49,629 bases of DNA from Alphaproteobacteria bacterium. GTDB taxonomy: Bacteria > Pseudomonadota > Alphaproteobacteria > Rs-D84. Under the pieces are notes generated by a model. It did no database searches. It saw only the letters and a list, made by a program, of their open reading frames with translations, and was not told the DNA's origin. Where the stretch lies: assembly GCA_041673665.1 (NCBI GenBank), contig JBAYXF010000002.1:1-49629 (forward strand). The letters are read 5' to 3'. How positions within the stretch are numbered: position 1 is the stretch's first letter; each line of letters opens with the position of its first letter. Shown piece by piece: positions 1-41,390 of the stretch. A program made the position numbers and the translations under genes.

Positions 1-451
1 AAATCCAAATTGATACTAATACAGTTTTTTTAATTATATCCATTATGGTTTTTTTTACATCCCCCTTGGATTTAATTAAATTATATGCTTCCAACATTAA
101 CCAAAATGCTAACAAAACACCCAATAATATTTGAATAAAATTAAATAAACTGCGTTGTAAAGATACCCCTACTTTATCCAAAGCGTCTATCAATGATTTA
201 CCAATTCGTGCCTCTACGGGAACATAATCATCAACTATGGGTGTATAAAAATTATCTACATCCGAAGACAAGCCTTCTAATAAAAGCTGTCTGTTGTGGT
301 CCGTTGCCCAAACACCATAATCAGAAACATCCCCAGCATTTGGGGCATTTCCATCTGCATGTACCGGGACGGTAAAAAACAAACAAAAAACAACCAAAGC
401 AAATTTGCAAAATATATTTATTTTTTTAAGATTTAATTTAAATAAATTCAT
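1..451 (-). CDS. TrbL/VirB6-like membrane protein, paralog A; 5' part only, ORF runs off the left edge
   Basis: Hand translation of the minus strand from ATG (451..449) gives 150 stop-free codons: MNLFKLNLKKINIFCKFALVVFCLFFTVPVHA/DGNAP... This reads as a Sec signal peptide, a ~70-aa soluble segment, a Trp-containing TM helix (ILLGVLLAFWLMLEAY), a short charged loop (KSKGDVKK) and the next TM, which is the layout of TrbL/VirB6 N-termini. It starts 5 nt after the stop of paralog B. It is absent from the supplied ORF track because it has no stop in the window. Confidence 0.5.
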   Translation of the reverse strand, partial: MNLFKLNLKKINIFCKFALVVFCLFFTVPVHADGNAPNAGDVSDYGVWATDHNRQLLLEGLSSDVDNFYTPIVDDYVPVEARIGKSLIDALDKVGVSLQRSLFNFIQILLGVLLAFWLMLEAYNLIKSKGDVKKTIMDIIKKTVLVSIWI

Positions 452-456
452 ATTTA

Positions 457-1917
457 TTATTTGCTTGCCTTTTCCATTGCATCTGTAATTGTTTTGGTTA
501 TTCCAGATGGAATACTCCATAACTTTTGTCCCATCTCTTTGAATGACTTTCCTATATTAAATATCGGATCTTTGCCCGAGCCATCACCAACAAAAATTTC
601 ATCCAGTTTTTTGCTGATAACATAAAAATATAACAAGAATATTCCCAACATCATCATCATAAAATCCCAACCATTACGCATAAAATCAAATGCCCCTGGA
701 TGCGATGCTTCGATGGTTGCACTGGTACGGTCAAAACATGCTTTGAATAAACTTTTATCCATTTTTCCATCTTGCAAGGATGCTTTTTCACAGTCTGAAA
801 ATACCTGAGCTACAATTTGATTTGATGAATTTTGTGCCGATTGCATTCCTGCAAACCCAGGTGGAGTAATTACAGAATAGCCATCCACCGGTCCCGGGAA
901 ATATTCATCTGCAACATATGCAACAATTGTGTAAATTATTAAAACTTTCAGTGTAATTACAATTACCCTGACCGCACAATTTACAAGCATATCAACCGAT
1001 TTACCAACCGCGCCCTTTAACACCCCCCAAACGTTTTCATATGCATAACTGGCAATAATAACGGGTAGAAATATAATTATAAATACTAATCTGAAAACTA
1101 CATTTAAAATATCAAAGAACAAACCAAATCCGATAATTAAAAACATTATTACCAAGCCCAATCCAGCCAACCAGGTAAACAAGCCTCCACCCATTCCCAT
1201 CCATGCGAAATTCATCAAAGAAAATCCACCAGACGCCCCGGCCAAAATAACACTGCTGGCATTACCAACAACACACATAAATGGTTTTAATGCTGGACCA
1301 ATCACATTATCCGAATTTTGAGTTTCTAACGCTGGACACATTGCATCAGAACCTATGCCAGTTGCGGCCATGGCAAGTTCAGACCCAACATACATAACTG
1401 GGCGAATTGTAATATCAGATACTGTTTTTAAAATTGTTGTGCCACCAAAACTTAATGCACCCAAAAAAGCACCAACAAATAAAACCCTGGCAAATTGTTT
1501 CCATACAGGATCAAACCAACTTTTAAAATCAAAATCCCTGGATTTTGTGGTCATTTTAACATTTTCTTTGTTGGCTTCGGCTATCTTTTTCCAGGTATGT
1601 ACCAACAAATAAATTGCAAATCCCAATGCAATTAAAATCCATAAATTAGCAACCAACGCATCCCAAAAACTTTTTGTTGCCATACCAATTACATTAAACA
1701 ATTGGGTAACATAGGGACATAAAAAACAACCATTGCTTTTTGATATATCACAAACATCACCAACGCACGCACCGGTTGCTTGCAAAAAGCTGTTCATGCT
1801 GGCGTATGTAATAGAATCACCATTTATACTGGATGACAAATACCAAATACCGACACCAATGGCAATAATCCACATTATCGCTTTGACAGCTATTAAAATT
1901 ATTTTCGATTTCAACAT
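457..1917 (-). CDS. TrbL/VirB6-like polytopic membrane protein, paralog B (CxxC subtype)
   Basis: 486-aa ORF with an N-terminal TM and a Cys-rich segment ending in CFLCPYV just before the first core TM. There are at least 6 further TM helices, periplasmic loops with Cys pairs (AMCPAL..PFMCVV; FSDCEK..FKACFD) and a K-rich tail with GQKLWS. The CDS itself is near certain; the family assignment is tentative. Confidence 0.55.
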   Translation of the reverse strand: MLKSKIILIAVKAIMWIIAIGVGIWYLSSSINGDSITYASMNSFLQATGACVGDVCDISKSNGCFLCPYVTQLFNVIGMATKSFWDALVANLWILIALGFAIYLLVHTWKKIAEANKENVKMTTKSRDFDFKSWFDPVWKQFARVLFVGAFLGALSFGGTTILKTVSDITIRPVMYVGSELAMAATGIGSDAMCPALETQNSDNVIGPALKPFMCVVGNASSVILAGASGGFSLMNFAWMGMGGGLFTWLAGLGLVIMFLIIGFGLFFDILNVVFRLVFIIIFLPVIIASYAYENVWGVLKGAVGKSVDMLVNCAVRVIVITLKVLIIYTIVAYVADEYFPGPVDGYSVITPPGFAGMQSAQNSSNQIVAQVFSDCEKASLQDGKMDKSLFKACFDRTSATIEASHPGAFDFMRNGWDFMMMMLGIFLLYFYVISKKLDEIFVGDGSGKDPIFNIGKSFKEMGQKLWSIPSGITKTITDAMEKASK

Positions 1918-1920
1918 AAA

Positions 1921-3123
1921 CTATTTTTCTTTTTTGTCTGCCGAACCGTCTTCTTTTTTATCAGCATCTTTACCAACAACTGCACTCCAAAGAGTTTTTC
2001 CAGTATTTTTTGCAAAATCAAATGTGTTTTTTCCAACCTTTAAGGCGTCTTCTCCCAACTTATCCCCTGATTCATTTCTTTGGGTTATATTAAATGCATC
2101 TGTGATTGCTTTGGCAACTTGTTTAATATTTTCTGATAAATATCCTACGATATAAACCAATACCAAAACCCCACCCAAAGAAACCATGGCCAAATTATCA
2201 TCTGATATATCGCTGGCCAATATATTCCCATTCATTACTTCTGTGACATCAATGTTTGGCCCGGCAAAAAACTTTGTAATTATAACCATAATTACAACAT
2301 AAGTTATAACAACCGTTGCCAATGAAACAATAGAATTTATTAAATTTTGGAAAAATGCGGGGGTTATTTTACTGCTCATATTTTTTACCCAATCCGCGCT
2401 TTTGGAATTTTTAAATACCCATAAAACCAACATAAATGGGAAAAAGAATGCAAAGAAAGTCATATCAATTACAACATCGGCGAAATAAAAACAAAACTTT
2501 ATAAATAATTTAAAAAACGCCCAAACAACATACAGTCCCATAAAAAATATCATAATATGTTTTAACAGCGCACCAATACCCAAAAAAGCTTTCCATTCAA
2601 ACGCCTTGTCCATTATTGCCATACCTAGTTTCATCATTGATTGAAATTGAGTAATGCTGGTCTTCATCAATAAAATTATTTTGTCGCGTAACTCGGGACG
2701 ATAAAATCCATCCTCAGACATTTTTTCTGGGGTATATACTACCTTTTGCGCAACTTGATCTGGATTTGTATTTAACATTGATTGTGTATAAACCAATGTC
2801 ATATCGGCCACAGGTTCAAAACTGAGTCTGGTTACCAGTCTTGGAACCATAACCCCCAATCCCAAAATAGTAATTACAAATAAAGAATTTATTATTACTG
2901 GTTTCAAATAAGATTGATACATCGGTTCCATTTTATCTTTTGCGCGCAAATTTGTTACGACGGAATACAAAACATAAAAAGCAACAAAAACACATAATAA
3001 AACCGCCGCCAGCAATGCCATCTTTCCGTAAACAGCACTGGTGGTCGCAGAAATAACCTGGAACAAACGGTCAAATACAGGACAGCTCCAACATTGCACC
3101 GAAGATTCTATCCATCCACTCAT
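1921..3123 (-). CDS. TrbL/VirB6-like polytopic membrane protein, paralog C (CxxC subtype)
   Basis: 400-aa ORF whose N-terminus MSGWIESSVQCWSCPVFDRLF carries the CxxC motif, followed by 6-7 TM helices. The tail reads GKTLWS...KKEDGSADKKEK. The ATG overlaps the stop of paralog D by 4 nt. Confidence 0.55.
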   Translation of the reverse strand: MSGWIESSVQCWSCPVFDRLFQVISATTSAVYGKMALLAAVLLCVFVAFYVLYSVVTNLRAKDKMEPMYQSYLKPVIINSLFVITILGLGVMVPRLVTRLSFEPVADMTLVYTQSMLNTNPDQVAQKVVYTPEKMSEDGFYRPELRDKIILLMKTSITQFQSMMKLGMAIMDKAFEWKAFLGIGALLKHIMIFFMGLYVVWAFFKLFIKFCFYFADVVIDMTFFAFFFPFMLVLWVFKNSKSADWVKNMSSKITPAFFQNLINSIVSLATVVITYVVIMVIITKFFAGPNIDVTEVMNGNILASDISDDNLAMVSLGGVLVLVYIVGYLSENIKQVAKAITDAFNITQRNESGDKLGEDALKVGKNTFDFAKNTGKTLWSAVVGKDADKKEDGSADKKEK

Positions 3124-4382
3124 TTCTTTTTAAACCATCCTATTGCTTTAGTAATACCCCTGCGCCATTCATGTGCTTTACTCCATGCATTCTTAGTATC
3201 GCCAATTGCTTTATTATATAAACTATCCGAACCACTGCCCGTATAATCCATCAATTGTTTTTTAGTTATTTCAAAAATTTTAAACATTAAAAAGAAAGTC
3301 AAAACAGATGACATCCACATTATAGAATGCCCACCAAAACCCATTGGATTATTTGCAACAACTGGGACATTACTGGATGCAGAACCGCCCGCAGCAACAA
3401 CAAATGTTGAATGATTAAAATTAAACAAGGCCTTGATCGCGGCAATATTTATTATCAAGATAAATACACAAGCAATCATCGTTATTACTAATTTTTTTAA
3501 ACTTTCTATTATCTGGCTGAATGCCGGCCATGGATTAACCCAACCCTTGGCATTTTTATCGGCAACAAAAGTTAAAACTTTGAATGGGTACATTATCAAA
3601 GCCATTCCAAATTCAAAAATTGCCTGGATTATCAAAAGTGCCATAAAGAAATTACTGGCGACAAAAGTAAACACCAAAAATATGCCCGTTATCAAGTTCA
3701 TAATATCACGGCCACCATGTGGTATCAGCGTCATCAACCCCAACAAACCGTCAGTTATAAATTTTAATCCACGTTTGATAACTTGGTTATTTGCCTGTGT
3801 TATTTGGGCGACTGGGCGAATTAAGAACTTACAGCCTGCCTCTGAAATATATCCTTTCTCAATTAAGTCCGGCGGGCAAGCCATGTTTTCTTCTGAAACA
3901 CCGGCCGACATATTCATCTGATTAATACTTGCTGTCATGCTTTGCGTATAAATTTCCCCAAATTGCAAAAAAGGGTCTACAATTATACCGGTAATATATT
4001 GCGGCTTGATTGGTAATAGCAATGCTGCTGCGATTATACCCCGAATACATGGTTTTAATACATCTTCGGAAATTTTAAGCGCAGATGGTTTTTCCCACAT
4101 TTGTCCGCCCCTGGCGTTAAAAAAATCCAACCAACTTTGCGGGATATACATTTTTACCAAATACATTCCGATAAACCAACCCAGCCAACCCCAAACCAAG
4201 ATGTAAATTATCCCATCCCCATTGCCCACAAAAAATTCATACGTAGCCATAGCAACAGATACAAACGCATTCAAAATTATCGGTATAAACAGAGAAAGAT
4301 CCAGTGCATCAACAATCCCCCATGACGCATAAGCTGCACATGGCAAAATTAAAAATAATAAAGATAAAAGTATTTTTCTCAC
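3120..4382 (-). CDS. TrbL/VirB6-like polytopic membrane protein, paralog D (signal-peptide subtype)
   Basis: 420-aa ORF with a GTG start (plus strand cac at 4380..4382). It has a signal peptide MRKILLSLLFLILPCAAYA/SWG, many TM helices, a loop Cys pair (MACPPD..EAGCKF) and a tail TKNAWS..WFKKK. Confidence 0.55.
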   Translation of the reverse strand: MRKILLSLLFLILPCAAYASWGIVDALDLSLFIPIILNAFVSVAMATYEFFVGNGDGIIYILVWGWLGWFIGMYLVKMYIPQSWLDFFNARGGQMWEKPSALKISEDVLKPCIRGIIAAALLLPIKPQYITGIIVDPFLQFGEIYTQSMTASINQMNMSAGVSEENMACPPDLIEKGYISEAGCKFLIRPVAQITQANNQVIKRGLKFITDGLLGLMTLIPHGGRDIMNLITGIFLVFTFVASNFFMALLIIQAIFEFGMALIMYPFKVLTFVADKNAKGWVNPWPAFSQIIESLKKLVITMIACVFILIINIAAIKALFNFNHSTFVVAAGGSASSNVPVVANNPMGFGGHSIMWMSSVLTFFLMFKIFEITKKQLMDYTGSGSDSLYNKAIGDTKNAWSKAHEWRRGITKAIGWFKKK

Positions 4383-4390
4383 TTCTTCGT

Positions 4391-4399
4391 ATTATAGCA
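4391..4399 (-). promoter_or_regulatory. extended -10 promoter element (TGCTATAAT) for paralog D operon
   Basis: The reverse complement of 4391..4399 is TGCTATAAT. The GTG start follows 8 nt downstream, with no SD and no clear -35. Confidence 0.5.
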
Positions 4400-4419
4400 T
4401 AAAAAGCCGGTGCAAATTA

Positions 4420-4428
4420 TGATATAAT
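4420..4428 (+). promoter_or_regulatory. extended -10 promoter element (TGATATAAT) for paralog E
   Basis: TGATATAAT lies at 4420..4428. The GTG start at 4435 is 6 nt downstream, with no SD. Confidence 0.5.
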
Positions 4429-4434
4429 TAGTCC

Positions 4435-5778
4435 GTGAACAAACTAAAAAAATTTTGGATTATCTTTCTTTCATTCTTGCCATTTTCTGCGGGAGCGATT
4501 GCTCCGCTGGCCATTGGCGCCATTGCTGGGGGCGTAACAATTGCCGGATTTTCAATCTATCGCTCTATGTCACCTGTTGATATGGTAGATGCCTTATCTT
4601 TCTTTTCCAGTTGTTGGTCGTGCGGAATGTTTAATGATATAATGTTGGTTTTATCAAATGTTTTACCACGTATTTATTCGGCTATTGGCCAGGTTTGTAT
4701 TCCAATAGCTTTTGCCCTGACCGCCGTATATTTCGGGTGGGAGGTATTAAAAGGTTATCTGGGAATAGATGGTCAACCAAAATCCCCCGATGCATGGAAC
4801 TTTTCTGGGAAACTGGGCGCACATTTATTCAAGCTTACTTTTATAACTCTGTTATTGGCTTTCCCATTACCCAGGTTTATAACCAGCACAGCCGTAGAAC
4901 CCATCTTTAACGTTGGTTTGACACTTTCGCATTCAATAGATGTAAGAATGGCCCCAAATATAAACAATGAAAATTCTTTTGAAACTTGCCTGATCGCAAC
5001 CGCTGTTATGGACCCTTCAAGTGCTGACAAAGCCGCAGCCTCAAACGGTGCATTTTCACCAAAGCTTCGCCATAATCTGGCCTGCCAAATAGGTCAAATT
5101 CATCAAATGACCGGTCTGGGAATGACCGCAGGTTGGACAATTATGAACATGGCATTTAATGATAAATATATGTACAAGCTGATATTCAATATTCCAATTT
5201 TCCCAAATGTAGTTATGTTTTTAGCGGGACTTTTAGTTGTCGTTTTATTTTTCTTTGCCCTGTTGCCAATCCCGCTTTACTTTTTACAAACCTTTATCGA
5301 ACTGGGGATGAGTCTGGTTATGATGCCATTAATGTTAATTTCTTGGCTGTTCCAAGATGCGGACGGGAAAACATGGATGGTACTGCCAGATGGGAAAAAG
5401 AACATCAAGGGAATTATTGATAAAGTTGTTCAAAACACATTGGGTATCGCAATGGTTGGTATATTTACTGCATTTTCAGTGTTATTCTTAAATTCGGCTT
5501 TTGGTAAATGGCAAGGTGCCAGCGTTTTACAAACCGCAATAACTGAAAACAAAGCCGAAGTTTTAATAGATGGCATGTTTATGAATAACGACAGTCTGGT
5601 AACAATTATAATGATGGGATTATTCTTGGCAATCTTTATGAATGCTATACCGGCACTAAGCCAGGCTTTGTTCAGCGATGTTAAAATACCAACCAAGCTT
5701 TATGATGATGTAAAGAAAGATTTCGGCAAAATAACCAGTAATGTCAAAGCCTGGTGGAAAAATATAAAGAAGGACTAA
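4435..5778 (+). CDS. TrbL/VirB6-like polytopic membrane protein, paralog E (CxxC subtype), divergent from A-D
   Basis: 447-aa ORF with a GTG start and a hydrophobic N-terminus. A CWSCGMF motif precedes the first core TM. It has several TM helices, a loop Cys pair (FETCLI..NLACQI) and a tail VKAWWKNIKKD. Confidence 0.55.
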   Translation: MNKLKKFWIIFLSFLPFSAGAIAPLAIGAIAGGVTIAGFSIYRSMSPVDMVDALSFFSSCWSCGMFNDIMLVLSNVLPRIYSAIGQVCIPIAFALTAVYFGWEVLKGYLGIDGQPKSPDAWNFSGKLGAHLFKLTFITLLLAFPLPRFITSTAVEPIFNVGLTLSHSIDVRMAPNINNENSFETCLIATAVMDPSSADKAAASNGAFSPKLRHNLACQIGQIHQMTGLGMTAGWTIMNMAFNDKYMYKLIFNIPIFPNVVMFLAGLLVVVLFFFALLPIPLYFLQTFIELGMSLVMMPLMLISWLFQDADGKTWMVLPDGKKNIKGIIDKVVQNTLGIAMVGIFTAFSVLFLNSAFGKWQGASVLQTAITENKAEVLIDGMFMNNDSLVTIIMMGLFLAIFMNAIPALSQALFSDVKIPTKLYDDVKKDFGKITSNVKAWWKNIKKD

Positions 5779-5844: not shown

Positions 5845-6369
5845 ATGACTTACAAAACCATACGTTCCCCGTTTTTATTCTGGCCCACCAGAGGGACCCG
5901 TGATTCGGACACCTATCAATCGGCCAGGCGTATTATTTCGGATCGTCATGGTGAAATGCCTTGTTTGACGCCCACAGATTTCGATATGATTGAATTTTTC
6001 AAAGCAACTCCTGATGCCGTTCTCTATTATCCTGTGTTTTCTGGTGTCCCTGGCTGGTGGGGCGAATTATTAGGCGGCAGTGCCCAAGTTTGTGAAAAAA
6101 TCGTCCTGACCAAAGATTGCTCTTTAATGGCAATCGCCAAAGACCAAATAATTGAAAACAAAGATCAGAATAAACTTTTTGTTGCCGAAATTTTTCCAAA
6201 CCCTGGTTTTTTCAAAAAAGTATCCAACTTTGGCGTAAGCATAGCCGATATGTTGGCAACCGAGTCTGGAACCGTTTTGGCTCTGTTTTCTGGGAAAAAC
6301 CCTGGCAAATTCCAAAACTTCATAGAATCTTCGGGTAATTTTTACCTGGGATGTGTTGGCGGATATTAA
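5845..6369 (+). CDS. hypothetical protein (174 aa), no family recognised
   Basis: Long ORF in an otherwise empty interval with its own -10 element. There is no signal peptide or TM. I cannot place the sequence (MTYKTIRSPFLFWPTRGTRDSDTYQSARR...). Confidence 0.5.
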   Translation: MTYKTIRSPFLFWPTRGTRDSDTYQSARRIISDRHGEMPCLTPTDFDMIEFFKATPDAVLYYPVFSGVPGWWGELLGGSAQVCEKIVLTKDCSLMAIAKDQIIENKDQNKLFVAEIFPNPGFFKKVSNFGVSIADMLATESGTVLALFSGKNPGKFQNFIESSGNFYLGCVGGY

Positions 6370-6415: not shown

Positions 6416-6439
6416 TTGCAAGCTAAAAAAGGTTTAACT

Positions 6440-6649
6440 ATGAAGAAAAACATACATCCAGAATACCACGAAATCAAAGTTACCCGTACAGATGGCAAAA
6501 CAATAAAAATGTTCTCGTCTGTGGACAAAGATTTGGTTTTATCTGTTGATAATCTGAACCACTCTGCTTGGACCGGTCAGCGTGCTGCCGCAGACAAGGG
6601 TCAGCGTGCCGCCGACTTTAAGAAAAAATTCGACGGGTTCAAATTTTAA
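6440..6649 (+). CDS. rpmE: 50S ribosomal protein L31
   Basis: MKKNIHPEYHEIKV... and the ...FKKKFDGFKF C-terminus match L31. The ATG at 6440 is preceded by AAAAAGG. The TTG at 6416 used by the ORF track lies immediately after the -10 box and is rejected. Confidence 0.9.
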   Translation: MKKNIHPEYHEIKVTRTDGKTIKMFSSVDKDLVLSVDNLNHSAWTGQRAAADKGQRAADFKKKFDGFKF

Positions 6650-6652
6650 TAA

Positions 6653-6680
6653 GCCCAGCGTTCGCGCTGGCTTTTATTTT
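6653..6680 (+). terminator. rho-independent terminator after rpmE
   Basis: GC-rich stem GCC(C)AGCG / CGCTGGC with loop TTCG, followed by TTTTATTTT. Confidence 0.6.
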
Positions 6681-6694
6681 TAAAAGCACAATAA

Positions 6695-7405
6695 ATGGAA
6701 AAAGAAAATCTGATAAAAGGCTCTTCGGAATTAAATAAAATGTTTGCCGCATTGGCGCAAACTGGGGCCGGATTACGTCATGATTTTGGGGAAGTTGAAA
6801 ATCTACAACAATCTCTTTCTGGTGCCCGTGACTTTGTTAAAAAAGCCGCGATAAGAATAGAAGAATCAATTTTACATAATTTAACCCTGATTCGTCCAAA
6901 TGCTGGTGTTTTAACACCAAATTATTCCCGCGATGGTGATGGACGGGATGAATTTGTCTTGGCATTTTCAGGCGCTAAAAATTTTATTCGTGGAAATCCA
7001 CATTTTGCGATATCTTTGGCCTTACGATCAAACAATGAAACAAAAATCGCATTGGTATACAGCCCAATTAACGAAAGATTATATTATGCCGAGGCTGGAT
7101 GTGGTGCTTTTGCATTTTCCGCATTTCATTCGGCGCGAATCAAGGTTTCCGGAATAAAAGAGCCGGAAGATTTAACATTGGGACTGGATTCGAATGATTT
7201 CAGGGTTGCTGGGGATACTCGTATTACTGGCTGTCCCGCGTTGGATCTTGCATGGGTTGCTGCCGGAAAATTTGATGGTTTTATATCCCAGCCACTAGAT
7301 TATGCAGAAATTTGTGCTGGGGAATTATTAATTAACGAGGCTGGGGGAGCAATCGAAATGAATGCCGAATTAGTGGCATCAAACAATAAATGGAAGAGAG
7401 AATAA
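6695..7405 (+). CDS. inositol monophosphatase/SuhB family protein with degenerate active-site motifs
   Basis: Collinear with SuhB: NFIRGNPHFAISLAL, ALDLAWVAAGKFDGF, AGELLINEAGG. The metal-binding DPxDGT motif reads LAFSGAK. Confidence 0.8.
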   Translation: MEKENLIKGSSELNKMFAALAQTGAGLRHDFGEVENLQQSLSGARDFVKKAAIRIEESILHNLTLIRPNAGVLTPNYSRDGDGRDEFVLAFSGAKNFIRGNPHFAISLALRSNNETKIALVYSPINERLYYAEAGCGAFAFSAFHSARIKVSGIKEPEDLTLGLDSNDFRVAGDTRITGCPALDLAWVAAGKFDGFISQPLDYAEICAGELLINEAGGAIEMNAELVASNNKWKRE

Positions 7406-7422
7406 TCCAAAAGGAAATTCTA

Positions 7423-8022
7423 ATGATTCTACTTAAAAACATTAATGGCAGATATCACTCTGATTATAAATTTATACTAAAAACCATATTGGCCTTGTCT
7501 TCCAGCGGGCTATATCGTGGCGAAAAAGAAATTATAAAAATCATTACTAATAGCGTAAAAGCTGTTGATACATCAATAACAAAAGCACAAAATGCCAATC
7601 AAATGTTAATTGATTACAAAGCATGTGTTAATTTACCTACATCAAAACTTAAAAAGAATGCTTCTAATTCATATATCGCCGTCTGTAATTCAACCTCAGA
7701 TTTATACCAAACATTTTATGATATTCGTGAAAATGGGAGTAATTTCGGAAAAAACTTAATTTCCAGAGAAATAATGCTGGCTTTTCTAAAAATCTTAGAA
7801 AAAACAGAACAATTAAAAAAAATGACCCCTATGTTTGATTTGGGTACTTCAATCACAAAAATAACAAGCGTCAGCAGTATGTATATGGGCGAGATTGAAA
7901 CATTCAGTAAAGATTCTGTTAAAAAAATAGAAGAACAATATAAAGAAATGAATAAAAATTATTCTGACTTTGCCCATGCATTCTGGCCAAGTTCATCAAA
8001 AAATAGTATTCATACTTTATAA
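7423..8022 (+). CDS. hypothetical protein (199 aa), K/N/S-rich, no family recognised
   Basis: ORF 7390..8022. I prefer the ATG at 7423 because AAGGAA (7410..7415) sits 7 nt upstream. The gene is very AT-rich, with no TM or signal peptide. Confidence 0.45.
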   Translation: MILLKNINGRYHSDYKFILKTILALSSSGLYRGEKEIIKIITNSVKAVDTSITKAQNANQMLIDYKACVNLPTSKLKKNASNSYIAVCNSTSDLYQTFYDIRENGSNFGKNLISREIMLAFLKILEKTEQLKKMTPMFDLGTSITKITSVSSMYMGEIETFSKDSVKKIEEQYKEMNKNYSDFAHAFWPSSSKNSIHTL

Positions 8023-8340: not shown

Positions 8341-8727
8341 CTAGGGCTTTAATACCTTACGCGCCTGCTCTAACAAATCTATTGCTTTATCTATACTAAT
8401 GCTGTCTGTGATCGTCCCCGGGGTTTGTTTTGCTGGCTTGGCCGTACCAATTGGTTTTTCGTTCGGAACGGTTATATCGGCGTTCATAAACTTTCCATCT
8501 TTTATCAGCTTTTTAACGCCGGCAATGGTCATACCACGATCATACAGCAATTCGCGAACCTGCTTCAAGGCGGCAACTGTTTCGGGACGATAATAGCGAC
8601 GTCCGCCCGCGCCCGTTGCTGGCTTAATTGAAACAGGAAACTGCTTTTCCCAATAGCGCAAAGTATGCGCGGGAATATCCAACTGTTTTGCTACTTCGTT
8701 AATAGAAATAAACGGTTCATTCGCCAT
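8341..8727 (-). CDS. MerR-family HTH transcriptional regulator
   Basis: The N-terminal [24 protein letters not shown]...[11 protein letters not shown] is a MerR-type winged HTH. The start overlaps the gyrA stop by 11 nt. Confidence 0.8.
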
Positions 8728-11407
8728 CGGCTATTTCCTCGGATTCTTCTTCTTTTTCAATTGCTGTTGCACTGATAACGCGTTCATCGTCCGCTGTGCG
8801 GAACAATGTTACGCCCGCTGTTGCACGACCCGCGATACGTACCGCATCCGCCGGGGTTCTGATGATTTTTCCGCCATCTGTAACCATCATAATGTCATAG
8901 TTTTCATCAATTGGGAAGCTGCCCGCGACCGCGGTATTTTTACCACCCAGTTTAATTGCGGTAATACCCGAACCGCCACGATGGGTCAAACGATATTCAT
9001 AAGAACTGGTGCGTTTTCCAAATCCATTTTCACTGATGGTTAAAATAAATTGTTCATCGCGTGCCATCTCCGCCATTGTTTCTTCGCCCAAAACAACGCT
9101 TGTTGTTTCTTCTTCGTCGCCTGCATCTTCTTCGGCGCCATCTGCACGACGCAGTGCGCGGCTTTGTTTAATGTATGCAGCACGTGTTTCAGCATCTGCG
9201 TCCGAATGATTCAGCATTACCATGCCAATGATTGTATCATCTTTGCCCAATTTAATTGCGCGAACACCTGTTGAATTACGACTGGCGAACACACGAATTT
9301 CTGTAACAGGGAATCTGATGCAACGACCACAATAAGTACTTAAGAACACATCTTGATTTTCATTACACAGCATAACACTGACCAAGCTTTCGTCATCTTC
9401 CAATTTCATTGCAATCTTTCCGTTCGCGCGTATGCTTTCAAAGTCTGAAAAATCATTTCTGCGGATCGTCCCCATGCTGGTGGCAAACATCAAGAAGGTT
9501 CCAGCCTCGACATCTGGCACTGGTAAAATTGCTGTAATTGTTTCGCCATCAGACAAAGGCAAAAGATTTACCAATGGACGACCCTTGGCACTGGCGGCCG
9601 CTTCGGGTAATTTATAAGTTTTCAAGCGATAACACATTCCCTTGGAACTGAAGAACATCAACGGGGTATGAGTATTTGCAACAAATAGTTGTGATACATA
9701 ATCATCTTCTTTGGTCTTCATCGCATTACGCCCCTTGCCCCCGCGTTTTTGTGCACGATAAGTATCCAGCGCAACACGTTTGATATATCCAGTATTTGAA
9801 ACCGTTACAACCATATCTTCGCGCGCTATTAAATCTTCTATATCCATATCAACTTCGGCATCTGAAATTATTGTTCTGCGTGGAACAGACCAATTATCAC
9901 GAACAGAGTTTGTTTCATCACGGATTATTTGAACAATGCGTTCATGGCTGCCCAAGATATCCAACAATTCTTTGATAATTCCACCCAAATCAACCAGATC
10001 TTTGTGGATTTTTTCACGTTCTAGTCCGGTCAAGCGATGTAATTGCAATTCTAATATAGCCTTTGCTTGATCTTCACTCATGCGGAACATGCCGTTTTCA
10101 TATTCTGTATTTGGATCATCAATTAATTTAATATAGCTTTCTATATCTGATGCCTTCCAGCTGCGCGCAACTAATTCCATTCGCGCGGCTTCGGGGGATT
10201 CGCTGCCCTTGATCAATTCTATAATTTCATCTAAATTTCCAACTGCAACTGATAGCCCCAGTAAAGTGTGCGCTTTATTTCGTGCCTTGTTCAATTCAAA
10301 TATAGTTCTGCGGCGAATAACATCTATGCGGAAATCAATAAACGCATCCAATACCATACGAACATTAAACAGCATTGGCTGGCCACGATTTAACGCCATC
10401 ATATTTACAGGAAAGCTGCTTTGTAATTCTGTATATTGGAACAATTGATTCAAAACGACATCAGCAATCGCATCGCGTTTTAATTCAATTACTATGCGTA
10501 CGCCTTCTTTGCTGGTTTCATCACGAATTTCCCCGATGCCTTCGACCCGTTTTTCTTTGGATAGATTTACTATTTTTATAATTAACCCGGCTTTGTTAAC
10601 CTGGTACGGAATTTCATCGACTATGATTGCTTGTTTTTCTTTCATGTCCTCGACATGGGTTTTTGCACGGACAATCACACTGCCACGACCAGTCGTATGC
10701 GCTTTATATGCCGCGCTGCGACCCATCATGATTCCGCCGGTTGGGAAATCAGGTCCCTGAATAATTTCAAATAATTCTTCGTCAGATATATCTTTGTTCT
10801 CTAATACCGCCAAAACACCATCGCAGACTTCGCCCAAATTATATGTTGGAACATTTGTTGCCATACCAACTGCAATTCCACTGCCGCCATTTACCAAGAA
10901 ATTTGGAAATTTTGCTGGCAAAACCTGGGGCTCTTGCAAACTGCCGTCAAAGTTTGGCATCCATTCAATGGTATCTTTATCCATATCATCCATCAAAGAC
11001 GCACCCAGCTTGGACAATCTGGCTTCGGTGTAACGCATTGCCGCGGGCTTGTCCCCGTCCATACTACCAAAATTTCCCTGTCCCTGGACCAAACAGGCCC
11101 CCATAGAAAAATCTTGGCCCATACGAACCATGGCCTCATAAATACTACTGTCGCCGTGTGGGTGGTATTTACCCATAACATCACCAACAATACGCGCACA
11201 TTTTACAGTTGCACGGGTTGCTGGCGCCACATCGTTCATAACATACATAATTCTGCGATGCACGGGCTTGCACCCGTCACGAACATCCGGCAACGCACGA
11301 TCCATAATAACCGACATAGCATAGTCTAAAAAGCTGCCACGCATTTCTTGTTCTAGTGCGCGTGTTGGTGCTTTGATTTGTGTGGAATTTTCATTGATTT
11401 CTGACAT
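8717..11407 (-). CDS. gyrA: DNA gyrase subunit A
   Basis: Motifs [41 protein letters not shown], and C-terminal beta-pinwheel repeats. The ATG at 11407 is preceded by GGAG. The upstream in-frame ATG at 11464 adds a non-conserved extension. Confidence 0.97.
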
Positions 11408-11507
11408 AAAAAATACTCCGTTTTTTAGTGTTATAAACATAGCAAATTGCTGGGTTTCGGGCAAGAAAATAATCCAAAAAAATGCGATTTTTATATAAAT
11501 AAAATTA

Positions 11508-37831: not shown

Positions 37832-39185
37832 ATTTTTTACCCTTGGGCGACAAAAATTCTTCAAGCCAATGATTATCTACATTCAAAGATTTTACATCTT
37901 TGGCCCCCAACAATTTTTGTTGCAAAGGAATTGTCGTTTTTATCCCTTCTATTATAAACTCATCCAAGGCTCTTTGTGCACGCATTAAACATGCTGGACG
38001 ATTTTGTGCCCAAACTATTAATTTTGCAATCAAAGAATCATAAGTAGGTGGTATTGCATACCCGGTATAAACCGCGGAATCAATACGTATCCCAAGCCCC
38101 CCTGGAGGATTATATGATGTTATCTTTCCAGGATTTGGAATGAACGTTTCTGGGTCTTCGGCATTAATACGAAATTCTATTGCATGTCCATTTGGAATAA
38201 GGTTTCCCTGGTTATACCCCAGCTTTTCCCCCTGGGCAATACGAATTTGTTCACGAACCAAATCCACCCCATAAACCATTTCTGTTACAGGATGTTCCAC
38301 CTGCAATCTGGTGTTCATTTCAAGGAAGTAAAACTTGCCGTCTTTAAACATAAATTCTAAAGTTCCAGCATTTGTATACCCCATTTTTTTCACAGCAGCG
38401 CGACAAGTTTCTATCATATCATCACGTTGCTTAATGGTCAGTGCAGCGGCTGGACATTCTTCCATAACTTTTTGATTTTTGCGTTGCAAAGAACAATCGC
38501 GCTCACCAAAAACCACAACCCCGCCATGTTTGTCCGCTAAAACCTGGAATTCAATATGTCTGGGATGTAATAGTAATTTTTCCATATACAGGGTATCATC
38601 ACCAAAACCAGCCTTGGCTTCGCGCTTGGTCATTTGGAACGCTTCGGTCATTTCAGAAGCGCTCATAACTGGTCGCATACCCTTGCCACCACCACCAGCT
38701 GACGCTTTTAACATAACTGGGTATCCAATTTTTTTGCCCCATTCCAATGCAGACTCTAATGTATCCACTGCGCCCTCACTACCTGGAACAACGGGCAAAC
38801 CACATTTTATTGCGGTTTTTTTGGCGGCAACTTTGTCCCCCATTTTGGAAATCATATTTGCATCTGGACCAATCCAAACTAAATTGTGTAATTCAACTTT
38901 TTCTACAAAACTAGCGCGTTCAGATAAAAATCCATAACCTGGATGAATTGCATCAGAATTGGTCAACAACGCTGCCGTTAAGATTGCAGACTCGTTAAGA
39001 TATGAATCTTTTGCTGGACCTGGGCCAATACAAACAGATTCGTCCGCAACATGAATATGTGAAGCCGTAATATCAGACGTAGAATAAACCGCAACGGTTC
39101 TTATGCCCATATCACGACATGCACGAATGATTCGCAAGGCTATTTCCCCACGATTCGCTATCAGGATTTTTTTTATGGCTGGCAT
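37830..39185 (-). CDS. accC: acetyl-CoA carboxylase biotin carboxylase subunit
   Basis: KILIANRGEIA.RI.RAC, the ATP-grasp motifs and EMNTR.QVEHPVTE. Confidence 0.96.
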   Translation of the reverse strand: MPAIKKILIANRGEIALRIIRACRDMGIRTVAVYSTSDITASHIHVADESVCIGPGPAKDSYLNESAILTAALLTNSDAIHPGYGFLSERASFVEKVELHNLVWIGPDANMISKMGDKVAAKKTAIKCGLPVVPGSEGAVDTLESALEWGKKIGYPVMLKASAGGGGKGMRPVMSASEMTEAFQMTKREAKAGFGDDTLYMEKLLLHPRHIEFQVLADKHGGVVVFGERDCSLQRKNQKVMEECPAAALTIKQRDDMIETCRAAVKKMGYTNAGTLEFMFKDGKFYFLEMNTRLQVEHPVTEMVYGVDLVREQIRIAQGEKLGYNQGNLIPNGHAIEFRINAEDPETFIPNPGKITSYNPPGGLGIRIDSAVYTGYAIPPTYDSLIAKLIVWAQNRPACLMRAQRALDEFIIEGIKTTIPLQQKLLGAKDVKSLNVDNHWLEEFLSPKGKK

Positions 39186-39186
39186 T

Positions 39187-39651
39187 TTATTCTATCACCA
39201 TTAATGGCGTATCAAATTCTACCGCTTGGCCGTCAGAAACCAAAACTTCTTTTACTACACCATCTTTGTCAGCTTTGACTGGATTAAATGTTTTCATAGC
39301 TTCTATTAAACAAATTGTATCACCAGTTTTAACTCTCTTGCCGACTTCCGCAAACTGTTTTGCGCCTGGTTCTGGTGCTAAATATGCAACACCAACCATA
39401 GGTGAACGAACCGCGTTTATTTCACATGCCGCAGGATCCGCCGAAGTATCACAAGAAGTTTTTGCCAATGGTGTCGCAGGCGTTGGCGCAGGCATTGTTG
39501 CAAATGCTGGCGCTGCTATCGCACCTTGGCGTGAAAGATGAACATGTTTACGATAAATGCCAAATAAAAATTGGCGTTCTAAATCAAGTTCGGTAAGACC
39601 CATCTCGTCCATAATTTTGGTCATGGCCTTTACTGTTGCGCGAAATGACAT
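39187..39651 (-). CDS. accB: acetyl-CoA carboxylase biotin carboxyl carrier protein
   Basis: C-terminal biotinyl domain with LIEAMKTFN. The ATG at 39651 is preceded by AAGGAG. Confidence 0.9.
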
Positions 39652-39704
39652 CAAGTCTCCTTTTAAAACGTGCAAGACCCATTGTAGCAAATCTGAAATA
39701 GATG

Positions 39705-39920
39705 TCAAGGAACAGGATCATATCCAAAACCACCCCCTGGACGACAGCGTAAAATCCTTTTTATTGCTAACCATGCCCCACGCAGGGCGCCGTGCTTTTC
39801 TATGGATTGTTTAGCATATTCACTGCAAGATGGGGTAAAACGGCATATTGCGCGACCACCAAACAAAGGGGATAATCCCAATTGATAAAATTTAATTAAT
39901 GCCAGGGCTATTTTTTTCAT
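39705..39920 (-). CDS. yidD: membrane protein insertion efficiency factor YidD
   Basis: YQ..LSP......CRF.PSCSEYA..........G..L...R..RC.P....G.DPVP. Confidence 0.9.
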
Positions 39921-40242
39921 TTGATAATTTATCCAGGGCTTCCTTCATTGTTTCTGTCCCTATTTTCAACGTAGCATCTAAAATTGCCGTCCTGGCTATG
40001 ACAATATAATCCATTTCTGGACTCATATCCGATTCGCAATCGCGCAGCCAAACCCGCAATAAACGTTTTGCTCGATTGCGATCATGTGCGTGAGCAAACG
40101 TCTTTTTAGAAGCAATCAGCCCATATTTTGCATCCCCAGGCCATAATGTTGGACGACTACGAACTATAAAAATAGGCGTTTTAACCACAGGGTCATCTGT
40201 GCCGGCTATAAAATCCTTATGTTTTCTTATTGTTTGTCTCAT
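39892..40242 (-). CDS. rnpA: ribonuclease P protein component
   Basis: 116 aa, basic, with the RNR motif region AHDRNRAKRLLR. It overlaps yidD as in rnpA-yidD operons. Confidence 0.85.
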   Translation of the reverse strand: MRQTIRKHKDFIAGTDDPVVKTPIFIVRSRPTLWPGDAKYGLIASKKTFAHAHDRNRAKRLLRVWLRDCESDMSPEMDYIVIARTAILDATLKIGTETMKEALDKLSNEKNSPGIN

Positions 40243-40252
40243 AATACTAATT

Positions 40253-40280
40253 AGTATAAGATAATAATTGCATTTTGCAA
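40253..40280 (-). promoter_or_regulatory. sigma70-type promoter of rnpA (TTGCAA-16-TATACT), 10 nt from the ATG
   Basis: Minus strand: TTGCAA (40280..40275), a 16-nt spacer, TATACT (40258..40253), AATTAGTATT, then ATG (40242). No SD. Confidence 0.5.
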
Positions 40281-40316
40281 ATTCTGCTTTATTATTGCGA
40301 AAGAAATTAAAAATAA

Positions 40317-41390
<1,074 letters not shown>

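What the first reader, a model, noticed from the sequence alone, without database searches (positions are those of the whole stretch)
1..5778. Array of five paralogous TrbL/VirB6-like polytopic membrane proteins with no other T4SS gene beside them
Seen: four co-directional, tightly packed minus-strand genes (3120..4382, 1921..3123, 457..1917 and a partial one at <1..451; junctions -4, +3 and +5 nt) plus one divergent gene (4435..5778). The four complete ones encode 400-490 aa proteins with 6-8 hydrophobic helices and extracytoplasmic loops that each carry a Cys pair. Their Lys-rich tails share a K-x-[LA]-W-[SW] motif (GQKLWS, GKTLWS, TKNAWS, VKAWWK). Three copies share an N-proximal C-[WF]-[SL]-C-[PG]-x-[FV] motif (CFLCPYV, CWSCPVF, CWSCGMF) just before the first core helix. 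The other two have cleavable signal peptides instead, so there are two subtypes. Established: tandemly multiplied virB6 genes are a hallmark of the Rickettsiales vir-homolog T4SS, where they follow virB3-virB4. Inference: this is an expanded VirB6/TrbL-like family. However, the proteins are much shorter than rickettsial RvhB6, nothing like virB3/virB4 precedes them, and one copy is inverted. I also do not recognise the CxxC subtype from described VirB6/TrbL proteins. It could therefore be a distinct, undescribed envelope or translocation module.
Basis: partly seen in the sequence, partly recalled or inferred. Interest (0 to 1): 0.8.

Follow-up and report, generated by a model that had tools for sequence, protein, structure and literature searches.

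The report
Five-gene VirB6-like membrane protein cassette
A genome-reduced, partner-dependent gut bacterium keeps five very old, very different copies of the membrane protein that forms the five-part base of type IV secretion machines, in a fixed chromosomal block with no other secretion gene nearby, which may mark an undescribed cell-contact or transport apparatus.

Summary
Four complete ORFs and one cut ORF at the stated coordinates encode five polytopic membrane proteins, and all five belong to one very divergent paralog family.

The VirB6/TrbL reading is supported, but only by remote-homology methods.
- Pfam, NCBIfam and PDB sequence searches find nothing directly.
- 30 of 67 distant relatives carry PF04610.
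- Two independent AlphaFold models both have R388 TrwI/VirB6 as their only non-background fold match.
- A broad family profile matches nine genuine plasmid VirB6 proteins (HHalign 90.8 %, E = 1.2e-6).

The organism belongs to order Rs-D84 (Ca. Enterousia). These are gut Alphaproteobacteria with genomes of about 0.7–1.6 Mb and a reported obligately partner-dependent lifestyle.

The block A-B-C-D / E-F is identical in 76 of 80 species genomes (the other 4 are contig-truncated) and is under strong purifying selection. No T4SS gene lies within ±10 kb. Arrays of four or five such genes recur in at least five other uncultured lineages, also without a recognisable T4SS gene within ±10 kb.

Best reading: an ancient, non-redundant VirB6-type inner-membrane platform, possibly a heteropentamer, of a highly derived T4SS-like apparatus.

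Whether VirB4 or other T4SS genes exist elsewhere in these genomes could not be tested here, and that is the decisive unknown.

Novelty: new variant of a known kind.

The parts
1..451 (-). Paralog A (array position 5). Only the N-terminal 150 codons lie in the window; the gene runs off the left edge. It has a signal-peptide-like N-terminus and no CxxC.
   Evidence: Translation. Family-A HMM gives E = 1.9e-44. Full-length orthologs are 423-439 aa in L001/L004/L006/L007. A links to D, E and B at 3.5e-9 to 3.5e-7.
457..1917 (-). Paralog B (array position 4), 486 aa. It has an N-terminal membrane anchor, a Cys-rich segment with CFLC, a central-loop Cys pair and a second Cys pair in a later loop. 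It is the best-conserved position across lineages.
   Evidence: L090 position 4 against the family-B HMM gives 7e-41, and the reverse search agrees. dN/dS 0.080.
1921..3123 (-). Paralog C (array position 3), 400 aa, the minimal version. CWSC lies at residues 11-14. It has no signal peptide and no loop Cys pair.
   Evidence: AlphaFold pLDDT 86.5, pTM 0.79. Foldseek ranks 1-7 are all TrwI/VirB6. HHalign to canonical VirB6 covers residues 167-345. dN/dS 0.074.
3120..4382 (-). Paralog D (first gene of the minus-strand operon, presumed array position 2), 420 aa. It has a signal-peptide-like N-terminus, no CxxC and a loop Cys pair.
   Evidence: It overlaps C by 4 nt. dN/dS 0.062. Its assignment to position 2 rests only on gene order and the CxxC pattern, not on score.
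4383..4434 (.). A 52-nt divergent intergenic region between D and E. It must hold the start signals for both transcription units.
   Evidence: Sequence read. The median D-E spacing is 49 nt in 80 genomes. The promoter consensus scan is at background level, so no promoter is demonstrated.
4435..5778 (+). Paralog E (array position 1, inverted relative to the others), 447 aa. It has an N-terminal hydrophobic hairpin, CWSC at residues 60-63 and an invariant loop Cys pair (C185/C217).
   Evidence: AlphaFold pLDDT 69.8. The Foldseek top hits are TrwI/VirB6. Position 1 of other lineages maps to E. dN/dS 0.054.
5845..6369 (+). Gene F, 174 aa, soluble and unrelated to A-E. It follows E in all 80 genomes examined. 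Whether it is a functional partner is unknown.
   Evidence: Synteny in 80 of 80 genomes. No Pfam, PDB or PADLOC match. Unrelated to A-E by HHalign. dN/dS 0.060.

Best explanation
The block encodes five ancient, non-redundant members of a previously unrecognised, CxxC-bearing branch of the TrbL/VirB6 superfamily.

**Shown**
- They are remote VirB6 homologs.
- They form a fixed, translationally coupled chromosomal cassette: D-C-B-A on one strand, and E followed by F on the other.
- The cassette is kept intact and under purifying selection throughout the genome-reduced order Rs-D84.
- Comparable arrays of four or five genes exist in several other uncultured lineages, at least two of them labelled Alphaproteobacteria.

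**Inferred**
- Canonical VirB6 is a homopentamer that forms the inner-membrane base of the T4SS stalk. Because none of the five paralogs has been lost from any complete locus examined, the five proteins most likely co-assemble in the inner membrane into one VirB6-type platform or channel, plausibly a 1:1:1:1:1 heteropentamer.
- This platform would serve a highly derived T4SS-like, contact-dependent translocation apparatus. Its remaining parts, if any, are encoded elsewhere, as in the scattered Rickettsiales rvh system.
- In bacteria reported to lack biosynthesis and standard uptake transporters, such an apparatus would mediate exchange with a partner cell.
For: **Homology to VirB6**
- 270 relatives were found by an exhaustive profile search.
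- 30 of 67 distant ones carry PF04610, and no competing membrane family recurs. The TrbL stretch lies inside the region the profile matched.
- Foldseek with two independent models puts only TrwI/VirB6 chains at the top. For E: prob 1.00, TM 0.55-0.58 normalised to the target. For C (pLDDT 86.5): ranks 1-7. Everything else scores TM 0.1-0.2.
- HHalign of the broad profile A3 against nine plasmid VirB6 proteins gives 90.8 %, E = 1.2e-6. It aligns the family's invariant Pro with the invariant G-P of VirB6.
- A ≥94 %-conserved Trp lies 11-18 residues after that Pro in B, C, D and E, compared with +18 in VirB6.

**Ancient and non-redundant**
- 76 of 80 genomes have exactly A- B- C- D- E+ F+.
- Junction medians are -1, -1 and -4 nt.
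- dN/dS is 0.05-0.10.
- The L008 and L092 arrays are position-by-position reciprocal best matches for all five positions. Position 4 = B, position 3 = C and position 1 = E, and the CxxC pattern of L090 (+-++-) equals E-D-C-B-A.

**Pentamer precedent:** R388 VirB6 (PMC9259494).

**Envelope-machine hint:** in L093/L094 the last array member is fused to an M23 peptidoglycan peptidase.

**Lifestyle:** Rs-D84 has no respiration, biosynthesis or standard uptake transporters, and is inferred to be an obligate symbiont or parasite (PMC12306168).
Against: - No direct Pfam, NCBIfam or PDB sequence hit.
- The narrow ortholog profile fails against VirB6 (E = 0.18).
- Foldseek E-values are only about 1e-2, with rmsd 8-11 Å.
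- No VirB4, VirB8-11 or VirD4 is seen in the 49.6-kb window or within ±10 kb in the loci whose gene and Pfam tables were read: four Rs-D84 relatives and seven loci from other lineages. A T4SS context is therefore an assumption.
- Hetero-oligomerisation is inferred only from copy number and conservation.
- Some other lineages show four called genes rather than five (L093, L104).
- Family A lacks the Pro…Trp signature, and positions 2 and 5 cannot be mapped to D and A by score.
Confidence: 0.55

Rival explanations
1. **Stand-alone VirB6-only channel.** The five proteins form a membrane pore or conduit that works without VirB4/VirB11/VirD4 ATPases and without an outer-membrane core complex. It would act, for example, as the uptake route for metabolites or macromolecules in bacteria that lack standard transporters.
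For: No T4SS gene lies within ±10 kb of the array in any locus whose gene table was read or in the 49.6-kb window. Canonical virB6 lies within a few kb of virB4 and virB8-11. The genome paper on Rs-D84 discusses partner interaction and uncharacterised membrane proteins but mentions no secretion system. No library paper links Rs-D84 to type IV secretion.
Against: No VirB6 homolog is known to work without VirB4 (own knowledge). The Rickettsiales precedent shows that T4SS genes can be widely scattered (PMC2653234), so absence nearby proves little. Whole-genome content could not be examined here.
Confidence: 0.2
2. **Functionally diversified paralogs.** Each of the five forms its own homo-oligomer and serves a different substrate, condition or partner. 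This resembles the 'multiple uptake channels' idea proposed for the Rickettsia VirB6 duplicates.
For: The paralogs are about 75-80 % divergent and have different N-termini (signal peptide, CxxC or hairpin) and different loops. This idea was raised for Rickettsia VirB6a-e (PMC2653234). Other lineages show four called genes (L093, L104).
Against: The copies are retained one-to-one in all 76 complete loci, in a translationally coupled operon. That fits stoichiometric co-production better than independent use. Five copies match the VirB6 pentamer (PMC9259494).
Confidence: 0.17
3. **Not VirB6 homologs.** They are an unrelated helical membrane-protein family, such as a transporter, that resembles VirB6 only through long hydrophobic helices.
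For: No direct Pfam, NCBIfam or PDB hit. Foldseek E is about 1e-2 and TM below 0.6. The intermediate profile A2 does not reach TrwI by sequence.
Against: Three independent methods converge on VirB6 and on nothing else. The HHalign alignment pairs the invariant Pro motifs. No alternative family recurs among 67 relatives.
Confidence: 0.06
4. **Decaying remnant** of an integrated conjugative element or plasmid T4SS.
For: TrbL/VirB6 genes are typical cargo of conjugative elements.
Against: The chromosomal position and gene order are fixed in 76 of 80 species. dN/dS is 0.05-0.10. No integrase, relaxase or coupling protein lies nearby. GC content is 0.35-0.39, close to the window's 0.36-0.44.
Confidence: 0.02

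Closest known systems
Rickettsiales vir-homolog (rvh) T4SS: RvhB6a-e arrays of Rickettsia, and VirB6-1 to -4 of Anaplasmataceae
   Same: Both have four or five tandem, co-directional virB6-type genes in a genome-reduced alphaproteobacterium. Both sets of duplicates are about 80 % divergent from one another yet individually conserved. The Rickettsia VirB6/TrbL domains average 413 aa (PMC2653234), similar to the 400-490 aa proteins here. In Rickettsia the rest of the T4SS is scattered elsewhere in the genome.
   Different: - There is no virB3-virB4 directly upstream.
- One copy is inverted.
- The Rs-D84 proteins lack the large N- and C-terminal extensions. Extensions do occur in lineages L008, L092, L093 and L094.
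- Pfam PF04610 does not recognise them.
- The subfamily carries a conserved C-W-x-C motif.
- The host order is Rs-D84, not Rickettsiales.
- Direct orthology to RvhB6a-e was not tested because no Rickettsia sequence was available. None of the 20 relatives looked up is labelled as VirB6 or assigned to Rickettsiales; only 5 carry any name, 4 of them 'hypothetical protein'.
Canonical VirB6/TrbL (A. tumefaciens VirB6, R388 TrwI, pKM101 TraD; Pfam PF04610)
   Same: Both are polytopic inner-membrane proteins with long hydrophobic helices and a large central loop. The fold search picks TrwI as the only non-background match. The profile-profile match covers the core helices and includes the invariant Pro. 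A conserved Trp lies downstream of that Pro in four of the five families.
   Different: - Canonical systems have one copy per system, located between virB5/eex and virB8.
- Canonical VirB6 is about 310-365 aa in the nine-protein set used here.
- It has no CxxC and no conserved loop disulfide pair.
- Here there are five divergent copies with no adjacent T4SS gene.
Extended VirB6 / DotA-type protochannel proteins
   Same: They are large VirB6-like membrane proteins with extra domains. DotA (9ngy) appears at rank 17 for model E (prob 0.54). Distant relatives of this family are 600-1500 aa with the VirB6-like core internal.
   Different: The DotA match is weak. The Rs-D84 proteins are minimal rather than extended. 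No Dot/Icm genes were seen.
Peptidoglycan-hydrolase components of T4SSs (VirB1-like; LytM/M23 or CHAP domains in Gram-positive systems)
   Same: In L093/L094 the last VirB6-like gene of the array is fused to an M23 peptidase. This links a cell-wall-cutting activity with a translocon component, as in T4SSs (PMC12857230).
   Different: The fusion is absent from the window's lineage, and no separate hydrolase gene lies next to the Rs-D84 cassette.

Membership tests
TrbL/VirB6 superfamily (Pfam PF04610) | Direct match to the PF04610 profile at or above the gathering score | tested here: not met
   There is no PF04610 hit at E ≤ 10 for any of the five window proteins or for any of 31 orthologs of E. 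NCBIfam is also negative.
TrbL/VirB6 superfamily (Pfam PF04610) | Transitive link: sequence relatives of the family carry the PF04610 domain on the homologous region | tested here: met
   30 of 67 distant relatives from the exhaustive profile search hit PF04610, best E = 1.2e-8. In P0168, P0169 and P0172 the TrbL stretch lies inside the stretch matched by the family profile. Several of these score just under the gathering threshold.
TrbL/VirB6 superfamily (Pfam PF04610) | Profile-profile similarity to experimentally anchored VirB6 proteins | tested here: met
   A3 (44 sequences, Neff 6.1) against A4 (R388 TrwI plus 8 plasmid VirB6 proteins located between virB5/eex and virB8) gives HHalign 90.8 %, E = 1.2e-6 over 146 columns. 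The narrow profile A1 (Neff 2.0) fails with E = 0.18.
TrbL/VirB6 superfamily (Pfam PF04610) | Fold like solved VirB6 (TrwI; 7o3v, 8rt9, 8rtd) | tested here: met
   Model E (pLDDT 70): five of the top six matches are TrwI chains, prob 0.99-1.00, with TM 0.55-0.58 normalised to the target for the best three. Model C (pLDDT 86.5): ranks 1-7 are all TrwI, TM 0.39-0.47. Caveat: E-values are about 1e-2 and rmsd is 8-11 Å, so the resemblance is distant.
TrbL/VirB6 superfamily (Pfam PF04610) | Conserved core-helix Pro followed by the essential, invariant Trp | tested here: inconclusive
   Canonical VirB6 has P181…W199 (+18). Here B has +12, C +16, D +14/+18 and E +6/+11, each ≥94 % conserved, and A has none. 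HHalign aligns the Pro but not the Trp columns.
TrbL/VirB6 superfamily (Pfam PF04610) | Encoded within a T4SS gene cluster (next to virB3/virB4/virB5 or virB8-11) | tested here: not met
   None is present in the 49.6-kb window, in ±10 kb of Rs-D84 relatives, or beside the arrays of other lineages.
TrbL/VirB6 superfamily (Pfam PF04610) | Works with a VirB4 ATPase encoded in the same genome | not testable with these tools
   Only ±10 kb around the array can be fetched. No supplementary gene tables are held.
TrbL/VirB6 superfamily (Pfam PF04610) | Assembles as a pentamer | not testable with these tools
   No multimer prediction was available. Five conserved paralogs are suggestive only (PMC9259494).
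Rickettsiales rvh RvhB6 array | Four or more tandem, mutually very divergent virB6 paralogs, each conserved across the lineage | tested here: met
   There are five paralogs at 21-26 % pairwise identity. Each is a single-copy ortholog in 76 of 80 genomes.
Rickettsiales rvh RvhB6 array | Array directly follows rvhB3-rvhB4 (islet A) | tested here: not met
   The flanks are UvrD (47 of 72) or MraY (10 of 72) on one side, and gene F, rpmE and an inositol-phosphatase gene on the other. For the Rickettsia arrangement see PMC2653234.
Rickettsiales rvh RvhB6 array | Large N- and C-terminal extensions around the ~413-aa VirB6/TrbL domain (proteins of 670-1150 aa) | tested here: not met
   The window proteins are 400-486 aa. 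Extensions occur only in other lineages: L008, L092, L093 and L094.
Rickettsiales rvh RvhB6 array | Orthology to RvhB6a-e, and a host within Rickettsiales | not tested
   No Rickettsia sequences were available for comparison. The host is GTDB order Rs-D84 (PMC12306168), although NCBI labels some of these MAGs 'Rickettsiales bacterium'.
Conjugative-element-borne TrbL | Variable presence and linkage to relaxase, coupling protein or integrase | tested here: not met
   The locus is fixed in 76 of 80 species, is under purifying selection, and has no mobility genes nearby.

The most novel reading that the evidence does not exclude
The five proteins form a heteropentameric VirB6-type pore that works without any VirB4/VirB11/VirD4 ATPase or outer-membrane core complex. 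It would be a minimal, T4SS-derived conduit, and the main route by which these transporter-poor, biosynthesis-poor gut alphaproteobacteria take material from, or attach to, a partner cell. The same four-to-five-gene cassette would have been retained independently in several uncultured genome-reduced lineages.
Probability: 0.2. Interest if true: 0.9.

Novelty: new variant of a known kind. Interest (0 to 1): 0.64.

Why it matters
1. **A hidden branch of a known family.** This is a whole branch of the VirB6/TrbL superfamily that standard annotation misses. Hundreds of orthologs are all labelled 'hypothetical' with no Pfam domain. It is marked by a C-W-x-C motif and by organisation into a cassette of four or five genes.

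2. **A test of VirB6 stoichiometry.** VirB6 is now known to be a pentamer. A cassette of exactly five ancient, individually indispensable paralogs, and by extension the long-puzzling five RvhB6 genes of Rickettsia, suggests a heteropentameric platform. I found no paper in the library stating this idea. It can be tested directly with multimer prediction and pull-downs.

3. **A candidate for partner dependence.** Rs-D84/Enterousia bacteria are widespread in human, livestock and termite guts. They are reported to lack standard uptake transporters and are thought to depend on other cells by unknown means. This cassette is one of very few concrete candidates for that interface.

4. **Possible ATPase independence.** If these genomes truly lack VirB4, this would be the first VirB6-type protein found to work outside a T4SS.

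Tried and rejected
**Searches that found nothing**
- Direct Pfam, NCBIfam and PADLOC scans of the five proteins.
- phmmer or profile searches against PDB sequences with C, E, A1 and A2.
- tblastn of the M23-fused relative against plasmids, which hit only the M23 domain.
- Source names for 20 distant relatives. Five carry a name, four of them 'hypothetical protein'. The only informative one is 'M23 family metallopeptidase [Alphaproteobacteria bacterium]'.
- Homolog searches from bridging proteins, which returned only 3-4 hits.
- Literature on T4SS in Rs-D84: none found. No supplements are held, and the Begmatov 2023 paper is not held.

**Ideas rejected or left unsupported**
- *Functional link to the mraY-ftsW-murG cluster that abuts the array in the window's closest relatives.* Rejected: MraY is the neighbour in only 10 of 72 genomes, and UvrD in 47 of 72.
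- *E's N-terminal two-helix hairpin is a fused copy of the small gene that precedes arrays in other lineages.* Not supported by BLAST or HHalign.
- *The small 68-91 aa proteins are VirB2 or VirB3.* Only one sub-threshold TrbC/VirB2 hit (E = 0.011). HHalign against R388 TrwL/TrwM is not significant.
- *The large divergent neighbours in other lineages are VirB4.* Rejected: they are charged, low-complexity-like proteins with no Pfam match, and no Walker-type motif was visible in their translations.
- *Gene F belongs to a known family.* No Pfam, PDB or PADLOC match.
- *Promoter or terminator signals define the operons.* The scan is at background level.
- *Full one-to-one orthology of all five positions with other lineages.* Only positions 1, 3 and 4 map; positions 2 and 5 are unresolved.

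Full report
**1. The observation**

An open frame runs off the left edge at 1..451(-). The junctions are +5, +3 and -4 nt, and D and E are divergent across 52 nt.

The four complete proteins are related to one another at 21-26 % identity: BLASTP gives C-E 3e-15, C-D 6e-6, B-C 2e-5 and D-E 2e-5. I rebuilt each family from about 75 orthologs and compared the profiles. All five then connect: A-D 3.5e-9, A-E 1e-7, A-B 3.5e-7, B-E 1.7e-7, C-E 1e-13 and D-E 1e-6. The truncated ORF is family A (E = 1.9e-44), and no further copy exists in the window.

- CxxC is conserved in B, C and E.
- A Cys pair in the central loop is conserved in A, B, D and E, but not in C.
- The C-terminal K-x-x-W is only loosely conserved.

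Against the closest genome, dN/dS is 0.05-0.10 at dS 0.4-0.5 for every gene, so these are functional genes.

**2. Organism and conservation**

E has 751 homologs in the word-indexed search. All are 'hypothetical', none has a Pfam domain, and the sources label them as uncultured Alphaproteobacteria or 'Rickettsiales' MAGs from termite, ruminant, chicken, mouse and human gut.

The genome-collection scan found relatives in 277 stretches. The 80 best loci include several Candidatus Enterousia genomes and two chromosomes of only 958,618 and 716,531 bp. According to PMC12306168, Enterousia belongs to GTDB order Rs-D84. Its genomes are 0.67-1.6 Mb. They lack respiration, biosynthesis of amino acids, nucleotides and lipids, and standard uptake transporters. 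The authors infer an obligate symbiont or parasite lifestyle that uses uncharacterised membrane proteins.

Across the 80 genomes, 76 have exactly A- B- C- D- E+ F+, and the other four are cut by contig ends. The A-B, B-C and C-D junction medians are -1, -1 and -4 nt, which points to a translationally coupled operon. F is an unrelated soluble 174-aa protein that follows E in all 80 genomes.

In the window's closest relatives the array abuts mraY-ftsW-murG. This holds in only 10 of 72 genomes, whereas a convergent UvrD-type gene is the neighbour in 47 of 72. I therefore treat the cell-wall adjacency as incidental.

**3. Is it VirB6/TrbL?**

Direct searches say no. Pfam and NCBIfam at E ≤ 10 find nothing. 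None of 31 orthologs hits PF04610. PDB sequence searches with single proteins and with profiles are empty.

Three remote-homology approaches agree that the answer is yes.

(a) *Bridging relatives.* An exhaustive profile search of 1.84 billion representatives found 270 relatives. Of 67 distant ones, 30 carry PF04610 (best E = 1.2e-8), 10 carry an M23 peptidase domain, and no other membrane family recurs. Where checked, the TrbL stretch lies inside the region my profile matched, although several score just below Pfam's threshold.

(b) *Fold.* The AlphaFold model of E (pLDDT 69.8) has TrwI/VirB6 chains of the R388 T4SS as five of its six best Foldseek matches. Probabilities are 0.99-1.00, and TM is 0.55-0.58 normalised to the target for the best three. 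Other proteins score TM 0.1-0.2. A second model, of C with a broader alignment (pLDDT 86.5, pTM 0.79), has TrwI at ranks 1-7. The E-values are only about 1e-2, so the resemblance is consistent but distant.

(c) *Profile against genuine VirB6.* I collected nine plasmid VirB6 proteins, each lying between virB5/eex and virB8. A broad family profile matches them with HHalign probability 90.8 % and E = 1.2e-6 over 146 columns. The alignment pairs the family's invariant Pro with the invariant G-P of VirB6. The narrow ortholog-only profile fails, which explains why routine annotation misses the family.

The essential Trp of VirB6 has plausible counterparts in B, C, D and E but not in A.

I conclude that these proteins are a remote branch of the TrbL/VirB6 superfamily. 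The branch is marked by a C-W-x-C motif that is more than 90 % conserved among the 67 distant relatives and has no counterpart in the canonical set.

**4. Context: no T4SS nearby, in any lineage**

The rest of the window is housekeeping: GyrA, MutS, TruB, PNPase, MreB, AccC, LptF/G and LptD. The gene tables for ±10 kb in four Rs-D84 relatives show no T4SS family.

The distant relatives are arranged in a similar way.
- L008: an 86-aa gene, then genes of 770, 781, 857, 474 and 650 aa.
- L090: a 78-aa gene, then 449, 619, 459, 460 and 437 aa.
- L092: a 91-aa gene, then 640, 648, 405, 457 and 763 aa, flanked by rpsB-tsf-pyrH.
- L094: a 68-aa gene, then five VirB6-like genes, the last fused to M23.
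- L093 and L104: four called genes each.
- L089: a short contig with the first two array genes, both weakly TrbL-positive.

All sit in chromosomal, housekeeping surroundings without VirB4, VirB8-11 or VirD4.

The L008 and L092 arrays are reciprocal best matches position by position for all five positions. Position 4 maps to B, position 1 to E and position 3 to C in both search directions, the last only for L090. Positions 2 and 5 cannot be assigned by score. However, the CxxC pattern of L090 (+-++-) equals the order E-D-C-B-A. The Rs-D84 block therefore looks like the same ancient cassette with its first gene inverted.

The accessory genes of those other lineages are a small 2-TM protein, a conserved membrane protein and long charged proteins. 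None has a detectable counterpart in Rs-D84, and none could be tied to VirB2, VirB3 or VirB4.

**5. Mechanism**

*Shown:* VirB6-superfamily membership, a fixed operon-like cassette, five ancient copies with none lost, and purifying selection.

*Established elsewhere:* VirB6 is a homopentamer that forms the inner-membrane base of the T4SS stalk and the proposed pilus assembly site (PMC9259494). Rickettsia keeps five virB6 duplicates that are about 80 % divergent, placed behind virB3-virB4a, with the rest of the T4SS scattered over four other islets (PMC2653234).

*Inferred:* the five proteins co-assemble into one VirB6-type platform, plausibly a heteropentamer. This platform belongs to a highly derived, contact-dependent translocation apparatus whose other parts, if any, are encoded elsewhere. 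The M23 peptidoglycan-peptidase fusions in sister lineages fit an envelope-crossing machine.

I found no paper that combines 'VirB6' with 'heteropentamer'.

The main rival is that the cassette works without any T4SS ATPase. I could not test this, because only ±10 kb around the array is retrievable and no gene tables for Rs-D84 genomes are held.

**6. Verdict**

- It is not a member of the rvh RvhB6 arrangement as defined: there is no virB3/virB4 upstream, the proteins lack extensions, and the host order differs.
- It is not a mobile-element remnant.
- It is best called a new variant of a known kind: a CxxC-bearing, Pfam-invisible VirB6 branch organised as a five-gene chromosomal cassette in genome-reduced, partner-dependent gut Alphaproteobacteria.

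Interest is moderately high. It would rise sharply if these genomes turn out to lack VirB4, or if a heteropentamer is demonstrated.

Noticed in passing
window 5845..6369 (+): Gene F is a 174-aa soluble protein with no Pfam, PDB or PADLOC match. It follows paralog E in 80 of 80 Rs-D84 genomes and is under purifying selection (dN/dS 0.06). It may be a dedicated partner of the cassette.
   Followed up: partly
L093 2119..12777 and L094 1726..12998: Other gut lineages (one relative is labelled Alphaproteobacteria) have a 68-71 aa two-helix protein followed by four or five VirB6-like genes. The last is fused to an M23 peptidoglycan peptidase (1279-1331 aa). The L093 small protein gives a sub-threshold TrbC/VirB2 pilin hit (PF04956, E = 0.011).
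   Followed up: partly
L008 2961..6283, L090 4928..9685, L092 2850..9613: The arrays in these lineages are preceded, divergently, by a conserved membrane protein (L008_420 ≈ L092_385 at 4e-28, ≈ L090_336 at 6e-9). L092_385 gives a sub-threshold NERD hit. Also upstream are very long Lys/Glu/Asn-rich charged proteins of 664-921 aa. None has a counterpart in Rs-D84.
   Followed up: partly
L009, L010, L011, L015, L030, L073 (record titles): Several GenBank MAG records titled 'uncultured Muribaculaceae bacterium' carry this alphaproteobacterial cassette. L009 is 94 % identical to the window's E. These records appear to be taxonomically mislabelled.
   Followed up: no
window ~38000..41000: Cumulative GC skew falls steadily to a minimum near 38-40 kb and then rises. 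Gene orientation switches from mostly minus to mostly plus between 39708 and 40341, upstream of mreB. This pattern would fit a replication origin in that interval.
   Followed up: no
L001 1291..4589, L004 459..2682, L007 1399..4691: In the window's subclade the array abuts mraY-ftsW-murG. No murD lies between mraY and ftsW, so this is a fragmented dcw cluster.
   Followed up: no
window 6416..6680 (+): rpmE (ribosomal protein L31; the ORF listing starts at a TTG at 6416) is followed immediately by the only convincing terminator-like hairpin in the region (6655-6680). E, F and rpmE may therefore be one transcription unit.
   Followed up: no
window 7390..8022 (+) and 8341..11464 (-): A 210-aa ORF overlaps the end of the inositol-monophosphatase-family gene (a 205-aa counterpart in L001 has no Pfam hit on record). 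A MerR-family gene overlaps the 5' end of gyrA, whose ORF listing starts at a TTG. The MerR-gyrA pairing recurs in L001, L002 and L004.
   Followed up: no
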